Assembly: GCA_002336035.1 (NCBI GenBank)
Contig: DDED01000160.1
Coordinates: 18,116 to 82,115 of the forward strand
Length of the DNA: 64,000 bases
From: Cellvibrionales bacterium UBA1963
Lineage (GTDB): Bacteria; Pseudomonadota; Gammaproteobacteria; Pseudomonadales; UBA7434
Direction of reading: 5' to 3'
The position numbers and the translations under genes are program-made. Shown piece after piece: positions 15,308 to 57,485 of the stretch. The notes under the pieces were generated by a model. It did no database searches. It had not been told where the DNA came from and worked only from the letters and a program-made list of their open reading frames with translations. Positions within the stretch are counted from its first letter, which is position 1, and each line of letters opens with the position of its first letter.

Positions 15308-15769
15308 TTGAGTATGGTTCAATCCACGATAAATAAGACATTGCAAAACGCTGAGGCAATGTGTCTTGATGCGGGTGTTAGGTTAACCGTAAAACGCAAA
15401 AGAACGTTAGCTTTATTATTAGAGGCGCAATCCCCCATTTCGGCTTATGAGTTAATCGATCAGTACAACGTTTGTTACAGCGGGTCGCTTACTGCGATGT
15501 CGGCTTATCGTATGTTGAACTTTCTAGTCGAAGCAACGCTCGCACATCGATTAAATTCGGTTAATAAATATACGGCGTGTGAGCATATTAATTGCGACCA
15601 CGCGCACCACCTGCCTCAATTTCTCATCTGTGGTAATTGTCAGTCAGTCTCCGAGGCAAGTATTCGACCAGAAACGTTAAATAAATTAAAAACCGATGTC
15701 CTCGACTCAGGCTTTACTCTTAATAATCAACAGCTTGAGCTTCATGGTTTGTGCAGTGACTGCCGCTAA
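15308..15769 (+). CDS. zur: Fur-family zinc uptake regulator (Zur-like)
   Basis: 153 aa. AEAMCLDAGVRLTVKRKRTLALLLEAQSPISAYELID aligns by eye with E. coli Zur (AEKICAQRNVRLTPQRLEVLRLM...ISAYDLLD). Cys pairs CGNC and CSDC are present. TTG start, with an alternative ATG at 15314. Confidence 0.8.
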   Translation: MSMVQSTINKTLQNAEAMCLDAGVRLTVKRKRTLALLLEAQSPISAYELIDQYNVCYSGSLTAMSAYRMLNFLVEATLAHRLNSVNKYTACEHINCDHAHHLPQFLICGNCQSVSEASIRPETLNKLKTDVLDSGFTLNNQQLELHGLCSDCR

Positions 15770-15891: not shown

Positions 15892-15921
15892 TTGTAATGC
15901 ACAAATGATATGTTGTATCAT
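15892..15921 (+). promoter_or_regulatory. Sigma70-like promoter overlapped by a Fur/Zur-type palindrome
   Basis: TTGTAA (15892-15897), an 18-nt spacer, then TATCAT (15916-15921). The 17-bp inverted repeat ATGATATGTTGTATCAT (15905-15921) overlaps the -10 element. It is AT-rich with TGATA/TATCA arms, like Zur/Fur boxes. It lies 70 nt upstream of the ATG at 15991. Confidence 0.45.
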
Positions 15922-15990: not shown

Positions 15991-16680
15991 ATGAAGGACT
16001 TAATTTTAGCGGGACTTTTTTCTGTGTTTGCTGCATCTGCATTTGCAAATGAACATGATCATGGGCATGGCGATCACGGCGATATCGTTGGTGAGGCAGA
16101 GGGCGGCGCAATAGAAGTAGAAACCGGCATGCCATTAGCAGGTGGCGGTCGATTATTTGAGGCTGATTTTGGTGATTTTGCACTCGGTACTTACGCAACG
16201 AATGCGCCAGGCTTTGAAGTGGAAGACGGCCCATTTGGCGCTTTGAATTACCTTGCCTACAACATGCAAAGCGATCTAAAAAGTTGGGATGGAATAAGTT
16301 GGGTTACTTCTTCTAACAGCCTATTCAGCATAGAAAACGACTATGAATCACCTACCCTTCAACCTTTTGCTAAAGGCATGATTGGTCAAGCAGATGATGA
16401 CGGCGGTGTACATACCCATATTGATTTCTTCATTGACCCTAATGCAGCAGTTGGTGCTTACCTGATTGAATTTATATTAGAGGGTTATACAGATAATGCC
16501 TTACAGTCTAGCAATGGCTATTCATCAGACTCCGTCTTTATTGCTTTCAATAATGGTTTAAGCTCAGAAGATTATGAGTTTGGTATAGACGCAATGTCAC
16601 CCGTACCCGTACCTGCTGCGGCCTGGTTATTTGTGTCAGGTTTAGCTGGCTTGGCTGGACTTCGCAAAGCGAGAAAATAA
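15991..16680 (+). CDS. Secreted protein, paralog A of an unnamed family (His-rich N-terminus, PEP-CTERM-like tail)
   Basis: Signal peptide MKDLILAGLFSVFAASAFA. Mature N-terminus NEHDHGHGDHGD. Conserved blocks ADFGDFALG, VHTHIDFF and VGAYLIEFIL. C-terminal tail PVPVPAAAWLFVSGLAGLAGLRKARK. The ORF opens at 15955 (TTG), but I prefer the ATG at 15991. Confidence 0.7.
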   Translation: MKDLILAGLFSVFAASAFANEHDHGHGDHGDIVGEAEGGAIEVETGMPLAGGGRLFEADFGDFALGTYATNAPGFEVEDGPFGALNYLAYNMQSDLKSWDGISWVTSSNSLFSIENDYESPTLQPFAKGMIGQADDDGGVHTHIDFFIDPNAAVGAYLIEFILEGYTDNALQSSNGYSSDSVFIAFNNGLSSEDYEFGIDAMSPVPVPAAAWLFVSGLAGLAGLRKARK

Positions 16681-16705
16681 AACTCAATATTTGAGTTACC
16701 CTAAT

Positions 16706-16740
16706 AAACCCAGAGGATTCTACTCTGGGTTTATTGTTTA
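16706..16740 (+). terminator. Rho-independent terminator after paralog A
   Basis: AAACCCAGAG-GATTCTA-CTCTGGGTTT forms a 10-bp perfect stem and is followed by the T-rich run ATTGTTTATTGTTTATT. Confidence 0.65.
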
Positions 16741-16764
16741 TTGTTTATTACGTTATAAAGGTAG

Positions 16765-17565
16765 GTGAAGATAGTGAAAAAGGGTGGATTCACGTTGATT
16801 AAAATTTTGAGTTTTGCAATAGCATTCTTGATAGGTCCTGTGTCTATTTCATATGCCCAACACAGTGATATATGGTTAACACTCACTGACAATCAAGTAA
16901 CGCCGACCGAAATTAACTCTGAAACCAACAGTCCTACCCTTGTTGATCTGACGACCGGAAAATTTTTATATCCCACTACCTTCGGCACTCCTAGTAATCC
17001 AGAAATACCAACAACAGGTGACCCTGGCTTCCAATCATCAGCGAATACGTTTGACCCAGGTTATATGTATTACCGTGCGGTAGGCTCTTTATGGTTCTGG
17101 AATGGCCAAGCATGGGTGAATAATGTCGTTGATCAAGAAAGAGTTAAACTCCGAGATGTTCAGTATGCTTACTCATTTGTTACACCAGATGGAGTTAGTA
17201 GCCCAGTAGGCGCAATTGACCAAATCGGTGGGGGTGGCTCTGTACATCAGCACATAAACTTTTATATTGAGAATTTAGGGTCAGCTAATCCAGCAACTGG
17301 CGCCTACATGATCGACATTGAGCTTTTCGTCACAAATACGATAGGCGGCAGTTTAGAAACGCACCTAAGCTCTGATCCCGTCAGAATCGCATTTAACTAT
17401 CAAATGAGTGAAACCGAATTTAGCGTTGCTATTAATGCACTCACATCGCCAACAGAGCCAGAACCTGTTTCGGTCCCCATGCCGAATGGCGCTCTGTTCT
17501 TGTTAGCTGCTTTGCTGTTAATATTTGGCTCTTTTAAGAACCGACGCAAAACTATAGTAAGATAA
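16765..17565 (+). CDS. Secreted protein, paralog B of the same family (PEP-CTERM-like tail)
   Basis: Signal peptide ending SISYAQ. Blocks GDPGF, AVGSLWFWNGQAWVNN, VHQHINFYI, TGAYMIDIELF and PVRIAFN. Tail VSVPMPNGALFLLAALLLIFGSFKNRRK. The start is ambiguous (GTG 16765, GTG 16774 or TTG 16795). Confidence 0.7.
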   Translation: MKIVKKGGFTLIKILSFAIAFLIGPVSISYAQHSDIWLTLTDNQVTPTEINSETNSPTLVDLTTGKFLYPTTFGTPSNPEIPTTGDPGFQSSANTFDPGYMYYRAVGSLWFWNGQAWVNNVVDQERVKLRDVQYAYSFVTPDGVSSPVGAIDQIGGGGSVHQHINFYIENLGSANPATGAYMIDIELFVTNTIGGSLETHLSSDPVRIAFNYQMSETEFSVAINALTSPTEPEPVSVPMPNGALFLLAALLLIFGSFKNRRKTIVR

Positions 17566-17584
17566 TTTTTTAATTTTCAGCCTT

Positions 17585-19132
17585 TTGAGTGTTAATAAAC
17601 CTGTGATAAATGCTTCTGGTTTTTTTTTGAAAATATGGTTTGAAAAAATCGCTTTTTTTAATTCTCCTCTTGTTAGGGCACTATTGCTTGCTTGTTTATT
17701 GACTGGCTGTGAGGGCGATGTCAGCGGCGGAGAGCAGACTGTAGTCAGTTCAGGAGGCCCAGCCTCGGGCGCCAGATTATTTGTTAATAATGTGGATGGA
17801 AACGATAATAACGACGGTATTAGTTTGCCCTTTAAATCACTTCAATACGCGCTGGATCAACTCCGGCCAGGCGATGTGCTGGTGATTCAGAGTACTGAGC
17901 AGGATTATCAAACAGATCAAGAGATCTCAGACCCTAATATTGATGGCAACATTCTGCGAGGCTTTCGATTAAGTACAAGCGGGACAAAATCTGCACCGAT
18001 TGTTATTGAGGGTGATATCACTTCACCCCCCACTATTCATCAAGGGCAATCTGACTTTGCTAATGACGGTAGTGCTCGGATTGGCCTGCTATTGGACTGC
18101 GTTAGTCACGTTGTTGTACGAAATCTAATAATAAGAGGAGTCAATGAGGCCGGTATTAGCAGTTCTATGGTGGGTGCTTGCGAAACAAGTAATGTCACTT
18201 TAGACGGCAACACTATTTACGATGTTTATGGTGAAAAGTATGTTGGCGGCATTCGGCTAATGGGCGTTAACGAGGTCATTATTCAGAACAATAAAATTCG
18301 TGATGTTTACACTCGGCAAGCTAATGAAGAACGTGGTTTGATTAAAGCTGGTAGCAGCCTATCCAATATTTTCATAGGCGATAATACATTTAATAATTTA
18401 GATGCCGGTGTTGTCCTTAATGCGCAGGGATTTGGTAGTACTGATTTTTATCCTGAAGAAGCGATAGTAAATATTCAGATACATAACAATACTTTTAAGC
18501 AAGTTGTGCGGCCAGTTAACTTCTATAATCAAATAAATGATTCCTCGGGAATTTATGAAATTAAAACAGGGTTATTCAAGTCTGTTGATGTTTCGGGTAA
18601 TTTATTTCTTACTGTGGAGGAATCTGCAATATTGGTTGAGCTAGGAGACAGTGAATATCAGTCAGAATCTTTTTGTCTATTCAATAATAATTTCATTGAC
18701 ACCGATTTGTCGGCAATTGATATTACAGGGGTTCAATACGCTGAGATATTTAATAATATTTTTGTTAGGCCGGAGAGTAATATTTTAGTGACACGGTCGC
18801 CTCAGAGTTCTATTGTAAATAGTATTGCCTACAGTAATTTTAATTTGTTTTTGGACGTTAAATATTTAACGTGGCAATTAGATGTAGGAGGTATGGCAGA
18901 GGAAGACTTTTCGGACCTGTCGAATTGGCAATATGCTCAATCTCATCCTGAGCTTAGCGTGGGGCCAGATCTCGACTCTTCAAATAATGATCCTCTATTT
19001 ATAGATCCGCTTGATGATTTTCGTTTGTCCGACGCATCTCCTGCTTTGCTAGCAGGGCGGTACGGTGCCTCTATTGGCTATGACTATACTTTGCCGTTAG
19101 ATTTTAAGTCTAACTGTCGAATGCTATTTTGA
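17585..19132 (+). CDS. Lipoprotein with right-handed parallel beta-helix repeats (DUF1565/pectin-lyase-fold-like)
   Basis: Lipobox LLACLLTGCEGD. N-terminal LFVNNVDGNDNNDGISLPFKSLQYALDQLRPGDVLVI is typical of beta-helix proteins, and periodic N/I/V-rich repeats follow (NTIYDV, IQNNKIRDV, IGDNTFNNL, IHNNTFKQV, FNNNFID, IFNNIFV). The start is uncertain (TTG 17585, GTG 17603 or TTG 17627 within a T9 tract). The gene overlaps the next by 4 nt. Confidence 0.65.
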   Translation: MSVNKPVINASGFFLKIWFEKIAFFNSPLVRALLLACLLTGCEGDVSGGEQTVVSSGGPASGARLFVNNVDGNDNNDGISLPFKSLQYALDQLRPGDVLVIQSTEQDYQTDQEISDPNIDGNILRGFRLSTSGTKSAPIVIEGDITSPPTIHQGQSDFANDGSARIGLLLDCVSHVVVRNLIIRGVNEAGISSSMVGACETSNVTLDGNTIYDVYGEKYVGGIRLMGVNEVIIQNNKIRDVYTRQANEERGLIKAGSSLSNIFIGDNTFNNLDAGVVLNAQGFGSTDFYPEEAIVNIQIHNNTFKQVVRPVNFYNQINDSSGIYEIKTGLFKSVDVSGNLFLTVEESAILVELGDSEYQSESFCLFNNNFIDTDLSAIDITGVQYAEIFNNIFVRPESNILVTRSPQSSIVNSIAYSNFNLFLDVKYLTWQLDVGGMAEEDFSDLSNWQYAQSHPELSVGPDLDSSNNDPLFIDPLDDFRLSDASPALLAGRYGASIGYDYTLPLDFKSNCRMLF

Positions 19133-21423
19133 GTTTAATGTTTATGCCATATGCTAAAGCACAGCAGTCTTTATCCCTTTTACTTAAATCGATTCGATTA
19201 AGGCGTGGTGTATTGTCAGCCATCAGTGCAGCCACTTTTTTTTCTTCTATGGCGGTTGCCGAAAACGCCATGGAGGAAGTGACGATTAATGCCCAGCAAC
19301 AGGTACAACAATCAATTTTAGGCTTTAGTACAATCGAATTATCAGGCGAAGAGTTACTCAGCAAACAAAGCGTTACTTTAGGTGATACGCTGGCCAATGA
19401 GATTGGCGTACACAATGCTTCATACGGTCCCGGTGTTGGCCTGCCTGTGTTGCGTGGCCTCTCTGGCGTGCGTGTGCGACTCAGCGCAGACGGTATCGGT
19501 GCATGGGACGGTTCCTCTCTTAGTCCTGACCATGCGACGGCTGTAGAACCTGCGCTAGCTAAAAGTATTCGGGTAATCAAAGGGCCTGCAACTGTTCTGC
19601 ATGGCAATAATGCAATTGGTGGCGCGGTAGAAGTAATTAATGGGAGAATTGCTGAGGAATTAGATTATCAAGCATTGAGCTCAGTCTTTGAACTAAGAAA
19701 AGAACTAAGCAACGATCATCAGCGTGACACCGCGATTGCTAAGCTTAAAACCGAAATGGGCAATTGGGTTTTACAAGTGGATGGCTTTATGAGGAGCGCT
19801 GAAGATATGAGTATTCCAGCGTTGGCCATTGAAGAAGAAGCCATCGAGCAAGTTTTTGGTATCAGTAATTCAGATAACACCTTTGGTACAGTATTAAATA
19901 CTGATTCAGAAACAGACAGTGGTTCAATTGGGCTAAGTTATGTCAATGATGATTTTTTTATTGGTGGTTCAAGCACAATAATTAACAGTGATTACGGTAT
20001 CCCGCCTGGCGCGCATACCGAGCCTGCGGATTCGCCAGGGCATAGTCATACACATCCAGTTGGTGACAACATCGCTGCTCAGTCGCGCGTTCGTATTGAT
20101 TTAGAGCAGGAGCGACATCTATTCAAGATTGGCGGTAAGCTGAGTCAGTTGGGTCTTGAGAACTTTCGCTTAACAATAGGAAATATTAAATATCAGCATC
20201 TTGAATTTGAACAAGATCCAATAACACAGGAATTCTTAAATGGCACTCGGTTTAAGAATGACGTGCTTGAAATTAAAGCCGAAGTTAACCACCACCTACT
20301 GGATCGGCTTAACACAAAGCACAGCGGCAAGATGGGTTTACAATGGGTAGATCTAGAGTTTTCTGCTGAGAACATGCGTATATTAGGCGGTGGCGAGGAT
20401 TTTATTCCTGCGGCTGATCAACGCTCGCTTGGTCTTTTCTTTTATGATCAGTTTCCATTAGCTATAGGTCTTCTGGAGATAGGTGGGCGCTATGAATGGC
20501 AAGAGATCTCACAACGTGAGTTAACAGCTGGATTGTTGCCCAACAATACCCAGTTTCTGCACGAGCCGATTACTTATCAAAACTATACTTTTTCAGGTGC
20601 ATTAAGTCTTGATTTATCCGATCGGCATCGATTGGTGCTTGGATTAAACTTGGCACAGCGCTCGCCTGAAATACAAGAATTACTTTCGCTGGGACCGCAT
20701 CTATCCACGCGTTCATACGATGTTGGCTTGCTGTTATTTAATAGTCAATCAGATGATTCTCCACCTGAGGCTGAAAAATTTAAGGGCGTTGATGTGCGCT
20801 GGGAGTGGCAGGGTGATATTGGCGATATGACTAGCTCTGTGTTTTATACCGAAGTGGATGATTTTATTTATCAGAAAAGAAGGACGAGAGGCGGACTTTT
20901 TGACATTTCGGATAACGTTTTTCGCAGTGCATGTGTCCGACTAGAGGAGTGTATTTCTGTTTTTGATTATACGCAGCACGACGCCACGCTGAGCGGCTAT
21001 GAATGGCAGTGGGCACTGCCCCCTATTGACCTTCTAGGTTCTGAGCTTCAAATAGAATTATTTGCCGATCATATTCGAGGAAGGCTAACAAACAATGAGG
21101 ATTTACCGAGAATGCCGCCTGCACGACGAGGCATTGGTCTGGAGTGGGCAAACGGGATTTTCTACTCAGAACTGCGTTATAATTTTGTCGCTGCGCAGGA
21201 AAAAATTGGAGAAAGTGAAGCTCCAACTTCTGCCTATGAGTTGTTGAATGCTTATATTTCTCTTACAGACGTCATTGACGGTCCGTATTATCAAGAAAGG
21301 ATTGTTTTTTTTCAGATGAAAAATTTATTAAATGAAGATATTCGAAAATCGACGTCCTTTTTAAGAAACTTCACTCCCGAGCCCGGTAGAGAGATAGTCT
21401 TAGGTATACGGTATCAACTTTAA
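19129..21423 (+). CDS. TonB-dependent outer membrane receptor with a His-rich extracellular-type segment (ZnuD-like by inference)
   Basis: 764 aa. Plug-domain motifs are LPVLRGLSGVRVRL and IKGPATVLHGNNAIGGAVEVI, with a TonB-box-like EEVTINA. The His-rich stretch is HTEPADSPGHSHTHPVGD. Alternative ATG starts lie at 19138 and 19144. Confidence 0.85.
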   Translation: MSLMFMPYAKAQQSLSLLLKSIRLRRGVLSAISAATFFSSMAVAENAMEEVTINAQQQVQQSILGFSTIELSGEELLSKQSVTLGDTLANEIGVHNASYGPGVGLPVLRGLSGVRVRLSADGIGAWDGSSLSPDHATAVEPALAKSIRVIKGPATVLHGNNAIGGAVEVINGRIAEELDYQALSSVFELRKELSNDHQRDTAIAKLKTEMGNWVLQVDGFMRSAEDMSIPALAIEEEAIEQVFGISNSDNTFGTVLNTDSETDSGSIGLSYVNDDFFIGGSSTIINSDYGIPPGAHTEPADSPGHSHTHPVGDNIAAQSRVRIDLEQERHLFKIGGKLSQLGLENFRLTIGNIKYQHLEFEQDPITQEFLNGTRFKNDVLEIKAEVNHHLLDRLNTKHSGKMGLQWVDLEFSAENMRILGGGEDFIPAADQRSLGLFFYDQFPLAIGLLEIGGRYEWQEISQRELTAGLLPNNTQFLHEPITYQNYTFSGALSLDLSDRHRLVLGLNLAQRSPEIQELLSLGPHLSTRSYDVGLLLFNSQSDDSPPEAEKFKGVDVRWEWQGDIGDMTSSVFYTEVDDFIYQKRRTRGGLFDISDNVFRSACVRLEECISVFDYTQHDATLSGYEWQWALPPIDLLGSELQIELFADHIRGRLTNNEDLPRMPPARRGIGLEWANGIFYSELRYNFVAAQEKIGESEAPTSAYELLNAYISLTDVIDGPYYQERIVFFQMKNLLNEDIRKSTSFLRNFTPEPGREIVLGIRYQL

Positions 21424-21424
21424 T

Positions 21425-22306
21425 ATGACGAATAAATACACTACCCACTTAATACTTTTGAGCTGCCTGACTTTATTGACGACAGCGCTACCGAGCTACG
21501 CGCAAGAAAATATAACGTGCAATAAATATGGCCATTTTGATCTATACATCGATGTTGATCCTCCGGGTGCGGACAGTGCTTTGTTATTGATTGATAATAG
21601 TGATGATTTTCCAGTTGAAGAGGGCACTGGTAGAACGATTGTGCCGGCCGATTTTGGAGATTTTGCTGGCGGCCCACATAAAACTGACGATCCTGGTTGG
21701 GTTATTAAGGGCGGTGATTTACTTGGCGGAGAGGTGTTATGGTTCCGCGCACTTGGATCGCTTCGCTTTTGGAGTAAAGATGAGCAACGCTGGCTAAATG
21801 ACGCACCCAACGGCGAGAGAGTCCGTTATTTTGGTGCGATACCGCCGGATGTCATGATTAATGGCAGCGATGAAGACAAGGATTTTTTCGAAGAGGGCAC
21901 CATTTGGTCAGGTGCGGGCATTCAAGGTCCACTAGAGGCTCCTATAGAAGAGGCTGTGGATGTGTCCCCCACGTATGACGCCGTCCATGCACATCTTGAT
22001 TTTTGCCTTGAGGGGAAAACCGCTTCAGGAGAAATGGGAGATTGTTCTATTGATGGCATCGGACACACGGGCGATCCCACAGTCGGAGCTTATTTAATTG
22101 AGATACAATTATTTTCTCACGCGGTACACAGTAATGGGCAACAACAAAAATACATTGACTCACCACCGGTGAAGGTCCTTTTAAATAATGGTTTAATTGC
22201 TAATGAATGTGTTGATGCCATTTCTGCTTTAACGACATATCCAAAGGTCTTTGATAATTCACCAGCCTTGCCGGCGGCAGGCATTTTAATTATGACAGGG
22301 CCTTAG
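21425..22306 (+). CDS. Secreted protein, paralog C of the same family (tail truncated)
   Basis: Signal peptide ending LPSYAQ. Blocks ADFGDFAGG, DDPGW, ALGSLRFWSKDEQRWLND, VHAHLDFCL, VGAYLIEIQLF and PVKVLLNNGL. The protein ends ...SPALPAAGILIMTGP with no basic tail. It starts 1 nt after the receptor stop. Confidence 0.7.
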   Translation: MTNKYTTHLILLSCLTLLTTALPSYAQENITCNKYGHFDLYIDVDPPGADSALLLIDNSDDFPVEEGTGRTIVPADFGDFAGGPHKTDDPGWVIKGGDLLGGEVLWFRALGSLRFWSKDEQRWLNDAPNGERVRYFGAIPPDVMINGSDEDKDFFEEGTIWSGAGIQGPLEAPIEEAVDVSPTYDAVHAHLDFCLEGKTASGEMGDCSIDGIGHTGDPTVGAYLIEIQLFSHAVHSNGQQQKYIDSPPVKVLLNNGLIANECVDAISALTTYPKVFDNSPALPAAGILIMTGP

Positions 22307-56873: not shown

Positions 56874-57044
56874 TGTAACAATTTCTCCTGGCAAGCATTG
56901 CTAGTCTCGTGCCAATGCTCCGCTCTTCTATACTATTTAAGTAAGTTTGACGCCAATTTATCGATCAAGAATACAGTAAATCATAGTTGAAAATCATGAT
57001 AAATCATCACAATGTGGAAAAGATGTAAAAGGGTAATACAGTCA

Positions 57045-57485
57045 ATGGTAAGATCAAAGAAAAATAGATTGGCAGCGGTCGGTCTGCTGTTGACTCTGCT
57101 CGTCGTGTCTCAACTTAGCCGCGCAGAAGAAAAAACTGATGTTGGTGATCGAGGCATGAGTGATGCATTTTATATCGCAATAGAACCAACGTTAGTGAGT
57201 CATTTTGGTGACGCTAACGACATCGCTTACATCAAAAGCGAAGTCAGCGTGCGAGTAAATAACATTGAGGCAAAAGATTTCGTCAATTTACATCAGCCAT
57301 TGATTAGAGATTTATTGTTGACCAATTTTTCTGTGATGACGCATGAAGCATTGAATAATAGAGACAAAAAAGAGCAATTTCAAAAAAGACTTCTCACCAT
57401 TCTAAAAAAAGAGCTGATAAAAGAGGGGGCGCAGGCGGCATCAATTGAGAATGTGTTGTTTACCCGTTTTTCAGTGTACCAATAA
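57045..57485 (+). CDS. FliL-like basal-body-associated protein (orphan copy)
   Basis: An N-terminal TM/signal segment is followed by YIAIEPTLVSHF...YIKSEVSVRV...HQPLIRDLLLTNFS...KEQFQKRLL, the FliL-family pattern. An alternative start lies at 57012. Confidence 0.55.
   Translation: MVRSKKNRLAAVGLLLTLLVVSQLSRAEEKTDVGDRGMSDAFYIAIEPTLVSHFGDANDIAYIKSEVSVRVNNIEAKDFVNLHQPLIRDLLLTNFSVMTHEALNNRDKKEQFQKRLLTILKKELIKEGAQAASIENVLFTRFSVYQ

What the first reader, a model, noticed from the sequence alone, without database searches (positions are those of the whole stretch)
15991..17565. Unnamed ~200-aa secreted domain family present in three copies with conserved ADFGDFA, HxH(I/L)(D/N)F and GAY(L/M)I(E/D) blocks
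I aligned the three translations by eye.
- Block 1: A has LFEADFGDFALG...APGF, C has IVPADFGDFAGG...DDPGW, and B has the weaker TTFGTPSN...GDPGF.
- Block 2: B has RAVGSLWFWNGQAWVNN, C has RALGSLRFWSKDEQRWLND, and A has DLKSWDGISWVTSS.
- Block 3: A has GGVHTHIDFFIDPNAAVGAYLIEFIL, B has GSVHQHINFYIENLGSANPATGAYMIDIELF, and C has DAVHAHLDFCLEG...GDPTVGAYLIEIQLF.
- Block 4: A has SDSVFIAFNNGL, B has SDPVRIAFNY, and C has SPPVKVLLNNGL.

The invariant HxH next to an acidic or amide residue looks like a metal ligand set. Paralog C (21425-22306) carries a Cys-containing insertion inside block 3 (GEMGDCSIDGIGHTGD). I cannot place this family in any Pfam or TIGRFAM entry from memory.
Basis: seen in the sequence. 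Interest (0 to 1): 0.7.

Follow-up and report, generated by a model that had tools for sequence, protein, structure and literature searches.

The report
Unnamed zinc-starvation surface protein family
Three related secreted proteins in this window belong to a widespread, unnamed family that almost always sits next to a zinc-regulated outer-membrane import channel, so they most likely catch zinc at the cell surface and pass it to that channel.

Summary
A (15991-16680), B (16765-17565) and C (21425-22306) are true paralogs (BLASTP E 1e-13, 2e-7, 1e-13). No Pfam, NCBIfam or PDB entry covers their core, and confident AlphaFold models have no close solved fold.

The family is large: 878 representatives at 50% identity. 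The HxH pair is invariant in 237-238 of 238 members.

The three genes lie in a six-gene module: a Zur-like regulator, A, B, a beta-helix lipoprotein, a ZnuD-like TonB-dependent receptor, and C. A conserved Zur-box-like operator overlaps the -10 of the promoter of A.

In 39 of 41 genome loci found with the family itself, a member lies within 400 bp of such a receptor. Zur, COG0523, DUF1826 and the zinc exoprotein ZepA recur nearby. 33 of 41 loci carry one short (PEP/VPLPA-CTERM) and one long (Cys-containing) paralog. Some long members are autotransporter passengers.

Best reading: Zur-repressed surface zinc-capture proteins that feed the receptor. They are analogous to ZepA but not homologous to it. 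Zinc binding itself is inferred, not shown.

The parts
15308..15769 (+). Fur-family regulator, most likely Zur
   Evidence: PF01475 E 1.6e-8. The best NCBIfam hit is Zur NF008646, E 4.9e-25, 88 bits, below the 167-bit cutoff. An orthologous regulator sits at the same position in L001 and L047.
15892..15921 (+). Sigma-70-like promoter of gene A (-35 TTGTAA, 18-nt spacer, -10 TATCAT)
   Evidence: Consensus scan. The -35 and -10 are conserved in the three-species alignment of the upstream regions.
15903..15921 (.). Zur-box-like operator AAATGATATGTTGTATCAT (6-5-6 inverted repeat ATGATA/TATCAT) overlapping the -10
   Evidence: It is the only long conserved island in the upstream regions of the A orthologs. 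It is identical in L047, and L001 has GAAATGTTATGTTGTATCATTTC. There are 2 matches in the window at up to 3 mismatches against 0.08 expected. Related TGTTATAATATAACA-type sites lie in promoters of the module in other genomes: 17 sites in 750 kb against about 1.8 in shuffles.
15991..16680 (+). Paralog A, short subfamily (229 aa from the ATG). Signal peptide residues 1-19; His-rich tract NEHDHGHGDHGD; H29/D31; HTHIDF at 16411-16428; VPLPA-CTERM sorting tail.
   Evidence: P0002 is 229 aa and 99% identical. TIGR03370 VPLPA-CTERM scores 25.7 bits against a cutoff of 25.35. AF2 pLDDT 86, pTM 0.75.
16702..16736 (+). Terminator-like hairpin (14-bp stem plus T-run) in the 84-bp A-B spacer
   Evidence: The suggested role (partial termination, so that A is made in excess) is inference.
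16765..17565 (+). Paralog B (small B-type clade). Mature N-terminus QHSD (H33/D35); HQHINF at 17245-17262; VPMP + TM + KNRRK tail.
   Evidence: No sorting-signal HMM hit; the tail was read by eye.
17585..19132 (+). Right-handed beta-helix protein with lipobox LLTGC (17696-17710), part of the module
   Evidence: PF13229 E 2.3e-9. Conserved inside the module in L001 and L006. Lipobox found.
19129..21423 (+). ZnuD-like TonB-dependent receptor with His-rich loop PGHSHTHP (20035-20058)
   Evidence: Plug and barrel Pfam domains. The best NCBIfam hit is ZnuD NF038289, E 1.4e-66, 226 bits, below the 950-bit cutoff. His-rich loop found.
21425..22306 (+). Paralog C, long Cys-containing subfamily. It starts 2 nt after the receptor stop. 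H37/D39; HAHLDF at 21986-22003; Cys pairs 32/262 and 194/207; truncated tail LPAAGILIMTGP (22265-22303).
   Evidence: AF2 pLDDT 89.8, pTM 0.82.

Best explanation
A, B and C belong to an uncharacterised family of secreted beta-sandwich proteins. These proteins are accessory components of a Zur-repressed, ZnuD-type TonB-dependent zinc import module.

Proposed mechanism:
1. When zinc is scarce, Zur leaves the operator that overlaps the -10 of the promoter of A, and the A-B-lipoprotein-receptor-C operon is transcribed.
2. The proteins are exported by Sec. A and B are then processed through their exosortase-type C-terminal signals, so they end up on or outside the outer membrane.
3. Each protein binds Zn2+ at a site built from three invariant histidines plus one or two aspartates: the H-x-D after the signal peptide and the HxHxD strand. 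The His-rich N-terminus of A would help as a low-affinity antenna.
4. The short paralog acts as the abundant scavenger.
5. The long paralog is translationally coupled to the receptor, and in other genomes it is displayed as an autotransporter passenger. It acts as the receptor-proximal acceptor and hands zinc to the TonB-dependent channel.

Shown: the paralogy, the conservation, the gene linkage, the operator conservation, and the surface-type sorting signals and fusions. Inferred: zinc binding, the identity of the ligands, the direction of the relay, and contact with the receptor.
For: - Paralogy is shown.
- The family has 878 representatives at E<=1e-3.
- H141/H143 (A numbering from 15991) are present in 237-238 of 238 members. 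H29 is present in 200/205 and D31 in 204/205. D145 is D, E or N in 211/238.
- Mean-field DCA (Meff 189) places the pairs 87-158, 88-151, 42-88 and 83-157 (241-aa numbering) among the top 21 pairs. This links the N-terminal HxD, the TDDPGF loop and the HxHxD strand.
- Gene context: the same six-gene module occurs in L001. In 41 genome loci retrieved with the family alone, a receptor lies within 400 bp in 39. Zur is present in 21, ZepA in 17, COG0523 in 15 and DUF1826 in 14.
- 33 of 41 loci hold exactly one long and one short paralog.
- Members with other architectures keep the same context. These are an autotransporter passenger directly after the receptor in L048, a PKD/dockerin fusion beside FolE2 and cobW in L049, and a 997-aa form beside Fur, a receptor and ZepA in L050.
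- The operator is conserved across three species and overlaps the -10. Zur-box-like sites are enriched in module promoters.
- A carries a VPLPA-CTERM signal, and many homologs carry PEP-CTERM.
- Precedent: ZepA is a Zur-repressed PEP-CTERM exoprotein that binds zinc through three histidines. Its neighbourhood includes TBDTs, COG0523 and 'other PEP-CTERM proteins' (PMC10957091).
Against: - There is no direct evidence of metal binding.
- Foldseek finds only weak resemblance to pilin and lectin sandwiches, which would also fit an adhesin or ligand-binding role.
- C lacks a complete sorting signal, so its final location in this organism is uncertain.
- The Zur and ZnuD assignments of the neighbours fall below the NCBIfam curated cutoffs.
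- The window site matches the canonical E. coli-type Zur consensus only moderately (14/19). The degenerate published E. coli motif is not discriminating here.
- No COG0523, DUF1826 or ZepA gene lies in this window.
Confidence: 0.6

Rival explanations
1. The proteins bind or handle another metal, copper above all, rather than zinc. They would serve copper-hungry enzymes in nitrifiers and methanotrophs.
For: Many family-bearing genomes are Nitrosomonas, Nitrosospira, Methylomonas and Methylococcaceae. His3/Asp sites and the X-His mature N-terminus of the B type (QHSD) can bind Cu(II). The beta-helix neighbour has a weak NosD-like hit.
Against: In those same genomes the neighbours are Zur-like regulators, COG0523, DUF1826, FolE2 and ZepA, which is the classical zinc-starvation set. 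Zur-box-like operators are present. The receptor's closest model is ZnuD. No copper genes (CopC/D, PCuAC, Mbn) were seen next to the family.
Confidence: 0.1
2. They are not metal carriers. They would be surface adaptors or lectin-like binders that dock a zinc-containing macromolecule or polymer, or the exopolysaccharide matrix, onto the receptor. The conserved His/Asp cluster would then serve ligand recognition or have a structural role.
For: The best, though weak, structural neighbours are fimbrial lectins, pilins and carbohydrate-binding sandwiches. Family members are fused to PKD, dockerin and autotransporter stalks. A pectate-lyase-like beta-helix lipoprotein lies in the module. PEP-CTERM proteins are associated with exopolysaccharide (PMC10957091, section 17-18).
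Against: TM-scores are at most 0.36 and no E-value is below 5e-4, so the resemblance is generic. An invariant triple-His plus Asp is typical of zinc transport proteins and not of lectins (established knowledge of ZnuA and ZinT; ZepA). A and its relatives have His/Glu-rich tracts.
Confidence: 0.17
3. They are extracellular or periplasmic enzymes that use the HxH...H/D site catalytically, for example hydrolases that release zinc from complexes, or zinc-independent replacements of a zinc enzyme.
For: HxH plus Asp motifs occur in metallohydrolases. Zur regulons often contain replacement paralogs (PMC6103462).
Against: The domain is a small Ig-like sandwich with no similarity to any enzyme family in Pfam, NCBIfam or PDB. 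Two or three paralogs per receptor, with obligatory adjacency to the receptor, fit a transport accessory better than an enzyme.
Confidence: 0.05
4. They act in the periplasm as zinc chaperones between the receptor and an inner-membrane importer, like ZinT or PA4063, rather than on the cell surface.
For: C has only a truncated sorting tail and two probable disulfides, which is compatible with a periplasmic protein. Sec signal peptides alone lead to the periplasm.
Against: Most members carry PEP-CTERM or VPLPA-CTERM signals. Long-type members occur as N-terminal autotransporter passengers or carry dockerin/PKD modules, which implies exposure outside the outer membrane.
Confidence: 0.08

Closest known systems
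ZepA / All3515 family (NCBIfam NF040463, 'all3515 family Zur-repressed PEP-CTERM protein'; PMC10957091)
   Same: Both are Sec signal plus PEP-CTERM-type exoproteins with an Ig-like beta sandwich and a conserved triple-His candidate zinc site that includes an H-x-H. Both have a His-rich mature N-terminus, a Zur-box promoter, and neighbours that include TBDTs, COG0523 and Fur-family genes. ZepA is encoded in 17 of the 41 family loci.
   Different: They are not homologous over the core. NF040463 does not hit any member tested, while the true ZepA neighbour scores 274 bits. The profile-profile match is limited to the last strand plus the sorting tail. ZepA's motif is H-X2-9-H-[FY]-H in the N-terminal third. 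Here one His follows the signal peptide and the HxH lies about 110-150 residues later. This family comes as a long/short pair glued to a receptor gene. This window has no ZepA.
ZinT/YodA and ZnuA periplasmic zinc-binding proteins
   Same: Both are Zur-regulated, have three-His (plus carboxylate) zinc sites with an H-x-H on a strand, and have flexible His-rich N-terminal tracts (my own knowledge of these structures; also cited in PMC10957091).
   Different: There is no sequence or fold similarity. ZinT and ZnuA are periplasmic partners of an ABC importer, not exosortase- or autotransporter-sorted partners of an outer-membrane receptor.
Bipartite and secreted-protein receptor systems: HasA/HasR hemophore, TbpB/TbpA, and the fungal Pra1/Zrt1 protein zincophore
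   Same: The logic is the same: a secreted or surface-anchored protein captures the nutrient and delivers it to a dedicated, co-encoded and co-regulated transporter.
   Different: The folds and ligands are unrelated (own knowledge). Here the cargo would be a bare metal ion, and two or three paralogs of one domain are used.
ZnuD of Neisseria and Acinetobacter (NF038289)
   Same: The adjacent receptor's best model is ZnuD, and it has a His-rich loop.
   Different: The score is far below the equivalog cutoff. As far as I know, classical ZnuD loci have no such accessory proteins.

Membership tests
ZepA / all3515 family (NF040463) | Match to the NF040463 model above its 75-bit cutoff | tested here: not met
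   There is no hit for A, B, C, P0102, P0012, P0080 or the L002 long paralog at E<=0.1-1. The genuine ZepA neighbour in L002 scores 274 bits.
ZepA / all3515 family (NF040463) | H-X2-9-H-[FY]-H zinc motif in the N-terminal part of the mature protein (PMC10957091) | tested here: not met
   The family motif is H-x-D near the mature N-terminus plus H-[ATSEQ]-H-[LVI]-[DEN]-[FW] in the C-terminal half. The middle residue is not F or Y.
ZepA / all3515 family (NF040463) | Homology across the two-domain core | tested here: not met
   hhalign of A2 against A5 aligns only 68 columns, covering the last strand and the PEP-CTERM tail.
ZepA / all3515 family (NF040463) | Zinc binding and a contribution to zinc uptake | not testable with these tools
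   This needs biochemistry and genetics.
PEP-CTERM / VPLPA-CTERM exosortase substrates (TIGR02595, TIGR03370, NF035944) | C-terminal P-x-P motif, TM helix and basic cluster recognised by the models | tested here: met
   A scores 25.7 bits on TIGR03370 against a cutoff of 25.35, so it only just passes. Homologs P0102 (43.5 bits on NF035944) and others hit PF07589. B has VPMP + TM + KNRRK by eye but no HMM hit. C has only LPAAGILIMTGP, so for B the test is inconclusive and for C it is not met.
PEP-CTERM / VPLPA-CTERM exosortase substrates | A cognate exosortase encoded in the genome | not tested
   Only 64 kb of the genome is available, and I did not scan the window for an exosortase gene.
Zur regulon member | A Zur operator overlapping the promoter | tested here: met
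   A conserved palindrome overlaps the -10, and similar sites are enriched in module promoters elsewhere. Binding by Zur itself is not testable here.
Zur (NF008646) for the adjacent regulator | Score above the curated cutoff of 167 bits | tested here: not met
   88 bits, but it is the best-scoring Fur-family model by 44 bits. Treat the gene as Zur-like.
ZnuD (NF038289) for the adjacent receptor | Score above the curated cutoff of 950 bits | tested here: not met
   226 bits, E 1.4e-66; it is the best model by a wide margin. Treat the gene as ZnuD-like.
Any Pfam-A family | A domain hit covering the conserved core | tested here: not met
   There are 0 families for A, B and C at E<=1. Across 103 members only PEP-CTERM (10 members), TSP_3 (1) and DUF6701 (1, E 0.0095) are hit.
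Any solved fold (PDB) | Foldseek TM-score of at least 0.5 or a significant profile hit | tested here: not met
   The best TMq is 0.36 for A and 0.27 for C. hmmsearch of the family profile against PDB gives a best E of 0.34.

The most novel reading that the evidence does not exclude
The long/short paralog pair plus the receptor would form a previously undescribed protein-based zinc relay on the cell surface. An exosortase-sorted scavenger would load zinc onto a receptor-docked paralog of the same fold, which then feeds a ZnuD-type channel. This would be a zinc counterpart of hemophore/HasR or TbpB/TbpA systems, built from a new fold. It would be widespread in free-living marine, nitrifying and methylotrophic bacteria, and often working beside ZepA.
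Probability: 0.4. Interest if true: 0.8.

Novelty: new variant of a known kind. Interest (0 to 1): 0.66.

Why it matters
How zinc reaches and crosses the outer membrane through ZnuD-type TonB-dependent receptors is poorly understood outside a few pathogens. The only protein 'zincophore' described in bacteria, ZepA, was reported in 2024.

This family has no name, no Pfam or NCBIfam model and no solved relative. Yet it has hundreds of diverged representatives and is almost always glued to such a receptor under Zur control, usually as a long/short pair.

If it binds zinc, it defines a second and more tightly receptor-coupled class of extracellular zinc-capture proteins. That would explain the 'other PEP-CTERM proteins' seen around zepA. 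It would also give annotators a new marker for zinc-starvation regulons in marine and soil bacteria, where zinc is limiting, and it would offer a tractable three-component system for studying metal hand-off to a TonB-dependent transporter.

Tried and rejected
1. hmmscan against Pfam and NCBIfam, phmmer and hmmsearch against PDB sequences, and Foldseek of two confident AF2 models against PDB found nothing beyond the sorting tails and generic Ig-like sandwiches.
2. I tested whether the family is simply ZepA. It is not. The recurrent 284-aa neighbour in other genomes is ZepA, and a second 284-aa neighbour is a long-type member of this family.
3. I guessed that C32 pairs with C194 and staples the two motif segments together. 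Cys co-occurrence points instead to C194-C207 and C32-C262.
4. The published degenerate E. coli Zur motif is not discriminating in this window: 12 matches against 14 expected at 3 mismatches. I relied on cross-species conservation instead.
The genome survey is therefore seeded from beta-proteobacterial short-type members.
It was rebuilt as A7.
7. I considered a copper role because of the nitrifier and methanotroph hosts. I rejected it as the main reading because all the neighbours are zinc-regulon genes.
8. I could not obtain model coordinates, so the His-His distances were not measured.
Full report
**Observation**

These are A (15955/15991-16680), B (16765-17565) and C (21425-22306). BLASTP gives A-B E 1e-13, B-C E 1e-13 and A-C E 2e-7 over nearly the whole mature proteins. 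The three-way alignment reproduces the ADFGDF/TDDPGF, GSLxFW...W, VHxH(I/L)(D/N)F...GAY(L/M)I(E/D) and S(D/P)xVxxxxN blocks. A family HMM built later finds exactly these three ORFs in the 64-kb window.

All three proteins start with Sec-type signal peptides, with AFA|N, SYA|Q and SYA|Q cleavage contexts read by eye. The ATG at 15991 is the likely start of A, because the 99%-identical database protein P0002 has 229 residues.

**No known family or fold**

- Pfam-A gives no hit at E<=1 for A, B or C.
- NCBIfam hits only the C-terminal sorting signal of A: VPLPA-CTERM, TIGR03370, 25.7 bits against a cutoff of 25.35.
- Scanning all 103 members of the family alignment one by one against Pfam finds only PEP-CTERM tails in ten, a TSP_3 repeat in one and a marginal DUF6701 hit (E 0.0095) in one.
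- Sequence and profile searches of the PDB are empty, with a best E of 0.2-0.3.
- AlphaFold2 models are confident. A has pLDDT 86 and pTM 0.75; C has pLDDT 89.8 and pTM 0.82. Both show an all-beta sandwich followed by a helix.
- Foldseek against the PDB returns only generic pilin, lectin and Ig-like sandwiches, with TM-scores of at most 0.36 for A and 0.27 for C.

**Size of the family and conserved residues**

The word-indexed search returned 108 clusters, all called 'hypothetical' and mostly from marine Gammaproteobacteria. The exhaustive HMM search of 1.84 billion representatives found 878 proteins at E<=1e-3, 385 at E<=1e-10 and 124 at E<=1e-30.

I aligned 238 diverse members to the family HMM. 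Residues below use the numbering of A from 15991.

| Position | Conservation |
|---|---|
| First His of HxH (H141) | 237/238 |
| Second His of HxH (H143) | 238/238 |
| Residue after next (D145) | D 181, E 18, N 12 |
| PG of TDDPGF | 238/238 |
| N-terminal H29 | 200/205 aligned sequences |
| N-terminal D31 | 204/205 aligned sequences |

The H-x-D motif at H29/D31 lies 2-13 residues after the signal peptide. It corresponds to B H33/D35 and C H37/D39.

The family therefore has three invariant histidines plus one or two aspartates. This is the composition of the zinc sites of ZnuA and ZinT (my own knowledge) and of the site predicted for ZepA.

I could not read model coordinates, so I ran a mean-field DCA on 226 sequences (Meff 189). 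In 241-aa numbering, the pairs 87-158, 88-151, 42-88 and 83-157 rank among the top 21. This places the N-terminal HxD segment, the TDDPGF loop and the HxHxD strand next to each other. It is supportive, but it does not replace a measured distance.

**Gene context in the window**

The three genes are part of a compact + strand module.

| Element | Coordinates | Notes |
|---|---|---|
| Fur-family regulator | 15308-15769 | Best model is Zur |
| A | 15991-16680 | Short subfamily |
| Hairpin with T-run | 16702-16736 | Fills the A-B spacer |
| B | 16765-17565 | B-type clade |
| Beta-helix protein | 17585-19132 | Has a lipobox |
| TonB-dependent receptor | 19129-21423 | Best model is the zinc receptor ZnuD, E 1.4e-66; carries the loop PGHSHTHP |
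| C | 21425-22306 | Starts two bases after the receptor stop |

The flanking genes are unrelated housekeeping functions: topoisomerase subunit, CoA-transferase, tyrosine phosphatase, Dus, SnoaL, FNR-type reductase and LysR.

**Operator**

Upstream of A, a sigma-70-like promoter (TTGTAA, 18 nt, TATCAT) is overlapped by the palindrome AAATGATATGTTGTATCAT at 15903-15921.

- The same 19-mer is present upstream of the A ortholog in a Cellvibrionales MAG (L047).
- GAAATGTTATGTTGTATCATTTC is present in L001.
- In a three-species alignment, this box and the -35 form the only conserved island.
- The pattern is essentially unique in the window: 2 matches at up to 3 mismatches against 0.08 expected, and the second lies inside an ORF.
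- Sites of the type TGTTATAATATAACA lie in the promoters of the receptor, the family genes, cobW, zur or zepA in ten other gammaproteobacterial loci. That is 17 sites in 750 kb against about 1.8 in shuffles.
- The degenerate E. coli motif quoted in PMC6103462 is not discriminating here, so it is not used as evidence.

**Context elsewhere**

The full six-gene arrangement recurs in a 3.4-Mb genome (L001). A distant short-type member (P0102, 37% identical to A) lies between a receptor and a Fur gene. COG0523, DUF1826 and two 284-aa unknowns are adjacent to it.

One genome-wide scan seeded only with short-type members returned 41 loci. They come from Nitrosospira, Nitrosomonas, Methyloversatilis, Methylobacillus, Methylomonas, Roseateles, other Burkholderiales, Planctomycetota and Cellvibrionales. 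I classified the neighbouring ORFs with phmmer and hmmsearch.

| Feature | Loci (of 41) |
|---|---|
| Receptor within 400 bp of a family gene | 39 |
| Fur/Zur-like gene | 21 |
| ZepA | 17 |
| COG0523 | 15 |
| DUF1826 | 14 |

The two exceptions to receptor adjacency are a contig that ends right after the family gene and a planctomycete locus with an adjacent Fur gene.

Clustering splits the family into three groups:
- A long, Cys-containing subfamily, which includes C.
- A short, Cys-free subfamily with PEP-CTERM or VPLPA-type tails, which includes A.
- A small B-type clade.

33 of the 41 loci have exactly one long and one short member.

Members with other architectures keep the same context:
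- In L048 the receptor is followed 4 nt later by an autotransporter whose N-terminal passenger is the long-type domain. After that come Fur, a short-type member, a very His-rich small ORF, a B-like member and cobW.
- In L049 a PKD/dockerin-fused long member follows FolE2, cobW, a short member and a receptor.
- In L050 a 997-aa long member sits with Fur, a receptor, a short member and ZepA.

Autotransporter, dockerin, PKD and exosortase signals all argue that the domain works outside the outer membrane.

**Relation to ZepA**

The literature search found one relevant paper, PMC10957091. It describes ZepA (All3515) of Anabaena, a Zur-repressed PEP-CTERM exoprotein.

- ZepA binds about 1.5 Zn per monomer.
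- It is predicted to use an H-X2-9-H-[FY]-H triad.

The recurrent 284-aa neighbour in my loci is ZepA. It scores 274 bits on NF040463 and contains EHGNHFHG. The other 284-aa neighbour is a long-type member of the present family.

The present family is not ZepA. There is no NF040463 hit. The profile-profile similarity is confined to the last strand and the sorting tail, and the position and spacing of the histidines differ. The window has no ZepA gene. Further searches of the held literature found no description of this family.

**Mechanism proposed**

Under zinc sufficiency, Zur occupies the box over the -10 of the promoter of A. Under limitation, the operon is expressed, and the hairpin after A probably makes A more abundant than the downstream products.

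A and B are exported by Sec and sorted by exosortase-type tails. A additionally carries the tract NEHDHGHGDHGD, and relatives carry His/Glu-rich inserts. These resemble the flexible antennae of ZnuA, ZinT and ZepA.

Each paralog would bind Zn2+ at the 3His/Asp site. The long paralog is translationally coupled to the receptor and is elsewhere displayed by an autotransporter. It would be the receptor-proximal acceptor.

What is shown: homology, conservation, linkage, operator conservation, and sorting signals and fusions. What is inferred: zinc as the ligand, the ligand residues, surface location in this organism (for C especially), and the order of transfer.

I put about 0.85 on 'Zur-controlled accessory of the ZnuD-like receptor' and about 0.6 on the full zinc-capture and hand-off model.

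**Rivals**

The alternatives are another metal (copper, because of the hosts), a lectin or adaptor role, an enzymatic role, and a periplasmic chaperone role. Each is weighed in the rivals section. None is excluded experimentally, but the zinc-regulon context and the surface-type fusions argue against them.

**Details and open points**

- In the long subfamily, Cys194 and Cys207 co-occur perfectly (69 both, 8 neither), and Cys32 co-occurs with Cys262 (58/3/0/16). This suggests one disulfide closing the insertion next to the HxH and one tying the N-terminal segment to the C-terminal helix.
- C ends with LPAAGILIMTGP, the first half of a VPLPA-CTERM signal without the rest of the helix or the basic cluster. 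56 long-type members end this way, whereas beta-proteobacterial long members keep a full PEP-CTERM. I have no explanation for this truncated tail.
- The role of the beta-helix lipoprotein is unknown. It is present only in the Cellvibrionales-like version of the module.

**Verdict**

The proteins belong to a sizeable, unnamed family with a new or at least unrecognised fold. The family is an almost obligatory companion of Zur-regulated ZnuD-like receptors.

Functionally it is best seen as a new variant of the recently described protein-based extracellular zinc acquisition exemplified by ZepA, to which it is not homologous. Interest 0.66.

Noticed in passing
window 16702-16736: A strong hairpin (14-bp stem) followed by a T-run fills most of the 84-bp spacer between A and B. 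It may attenuate read-through, so that A is made in excess over B, the lipoprotein, the receptor and C.
   Followed up: partly
window 17585-19132 (lipobox 17696-17710): A right-handed beta-helix (Pel9A/NosD-like) protein with a lipobox sits inside the module. It is conserved at the same place in L001 and, divergently, in L006, but it is absent from the beta-proteobacterial versions. Its role is unknown.
   Followed up: partly
window 22265-22303: C ends in LPAAGILIMTGP, which looks like the first half of a VPLPA-CTERM sorting signal cut off before the end of the TM helix and the basic cluster. 56 long-type relatives end the same way, while others keep a full PEP-CTERM.
   Followed up: partly
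window 20035-20058: The receptor has a His-rich stretch PGHSHTHP (context GAHTEPADSPGHSHTHPVGD), reminiscent of metal-binding loops in zinc receptors.
   Followed up: no
L048 13646-13993 (- strand): An extremely His-rich 115-aa ORF (HSNHSHVHGPDCGH...HLHHPHGDH) lies between the short-type and B-like family genes, next to Fur and cobW. It may be another zinc-handling product.
   Followed up: no
L002 3958-4812 (-), and 16 other loci: The zinc exoprotein ZepA (NF040463, 274 bits) is encoded beside the family/receptor pair in 17 of 41 genome loci. The 'other PEP-CTERM proteins' noted near zepA in PMC10957091 are probably this family.
   Followed up: yes
window 19129-19132 and 21423-21425: The beta-helix gene's stop overlaps the annotated receptor start by 4 nt, and C starts 2 nt after the receptor stop. 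This suggests translational coupling along the operon.
   Followed up: no
window 56992-57011: The sequence AATCATGATAAATCATCACA matches the degenerate E. coli Zur motif with 2 mismatches. It lies just upstream of ORF 57012-57485 and next to a DsbB-like ORF. It is probably chance or another Fur-family site.
   Followed up: partly
window 16001-20000: G+C is slightly lower (0.41-0.43) across the module than in the upstream flank (0.46-0.47). The flanking genes differ between this window and L001, consistent with the module moving as a unit.
   Followed up: no
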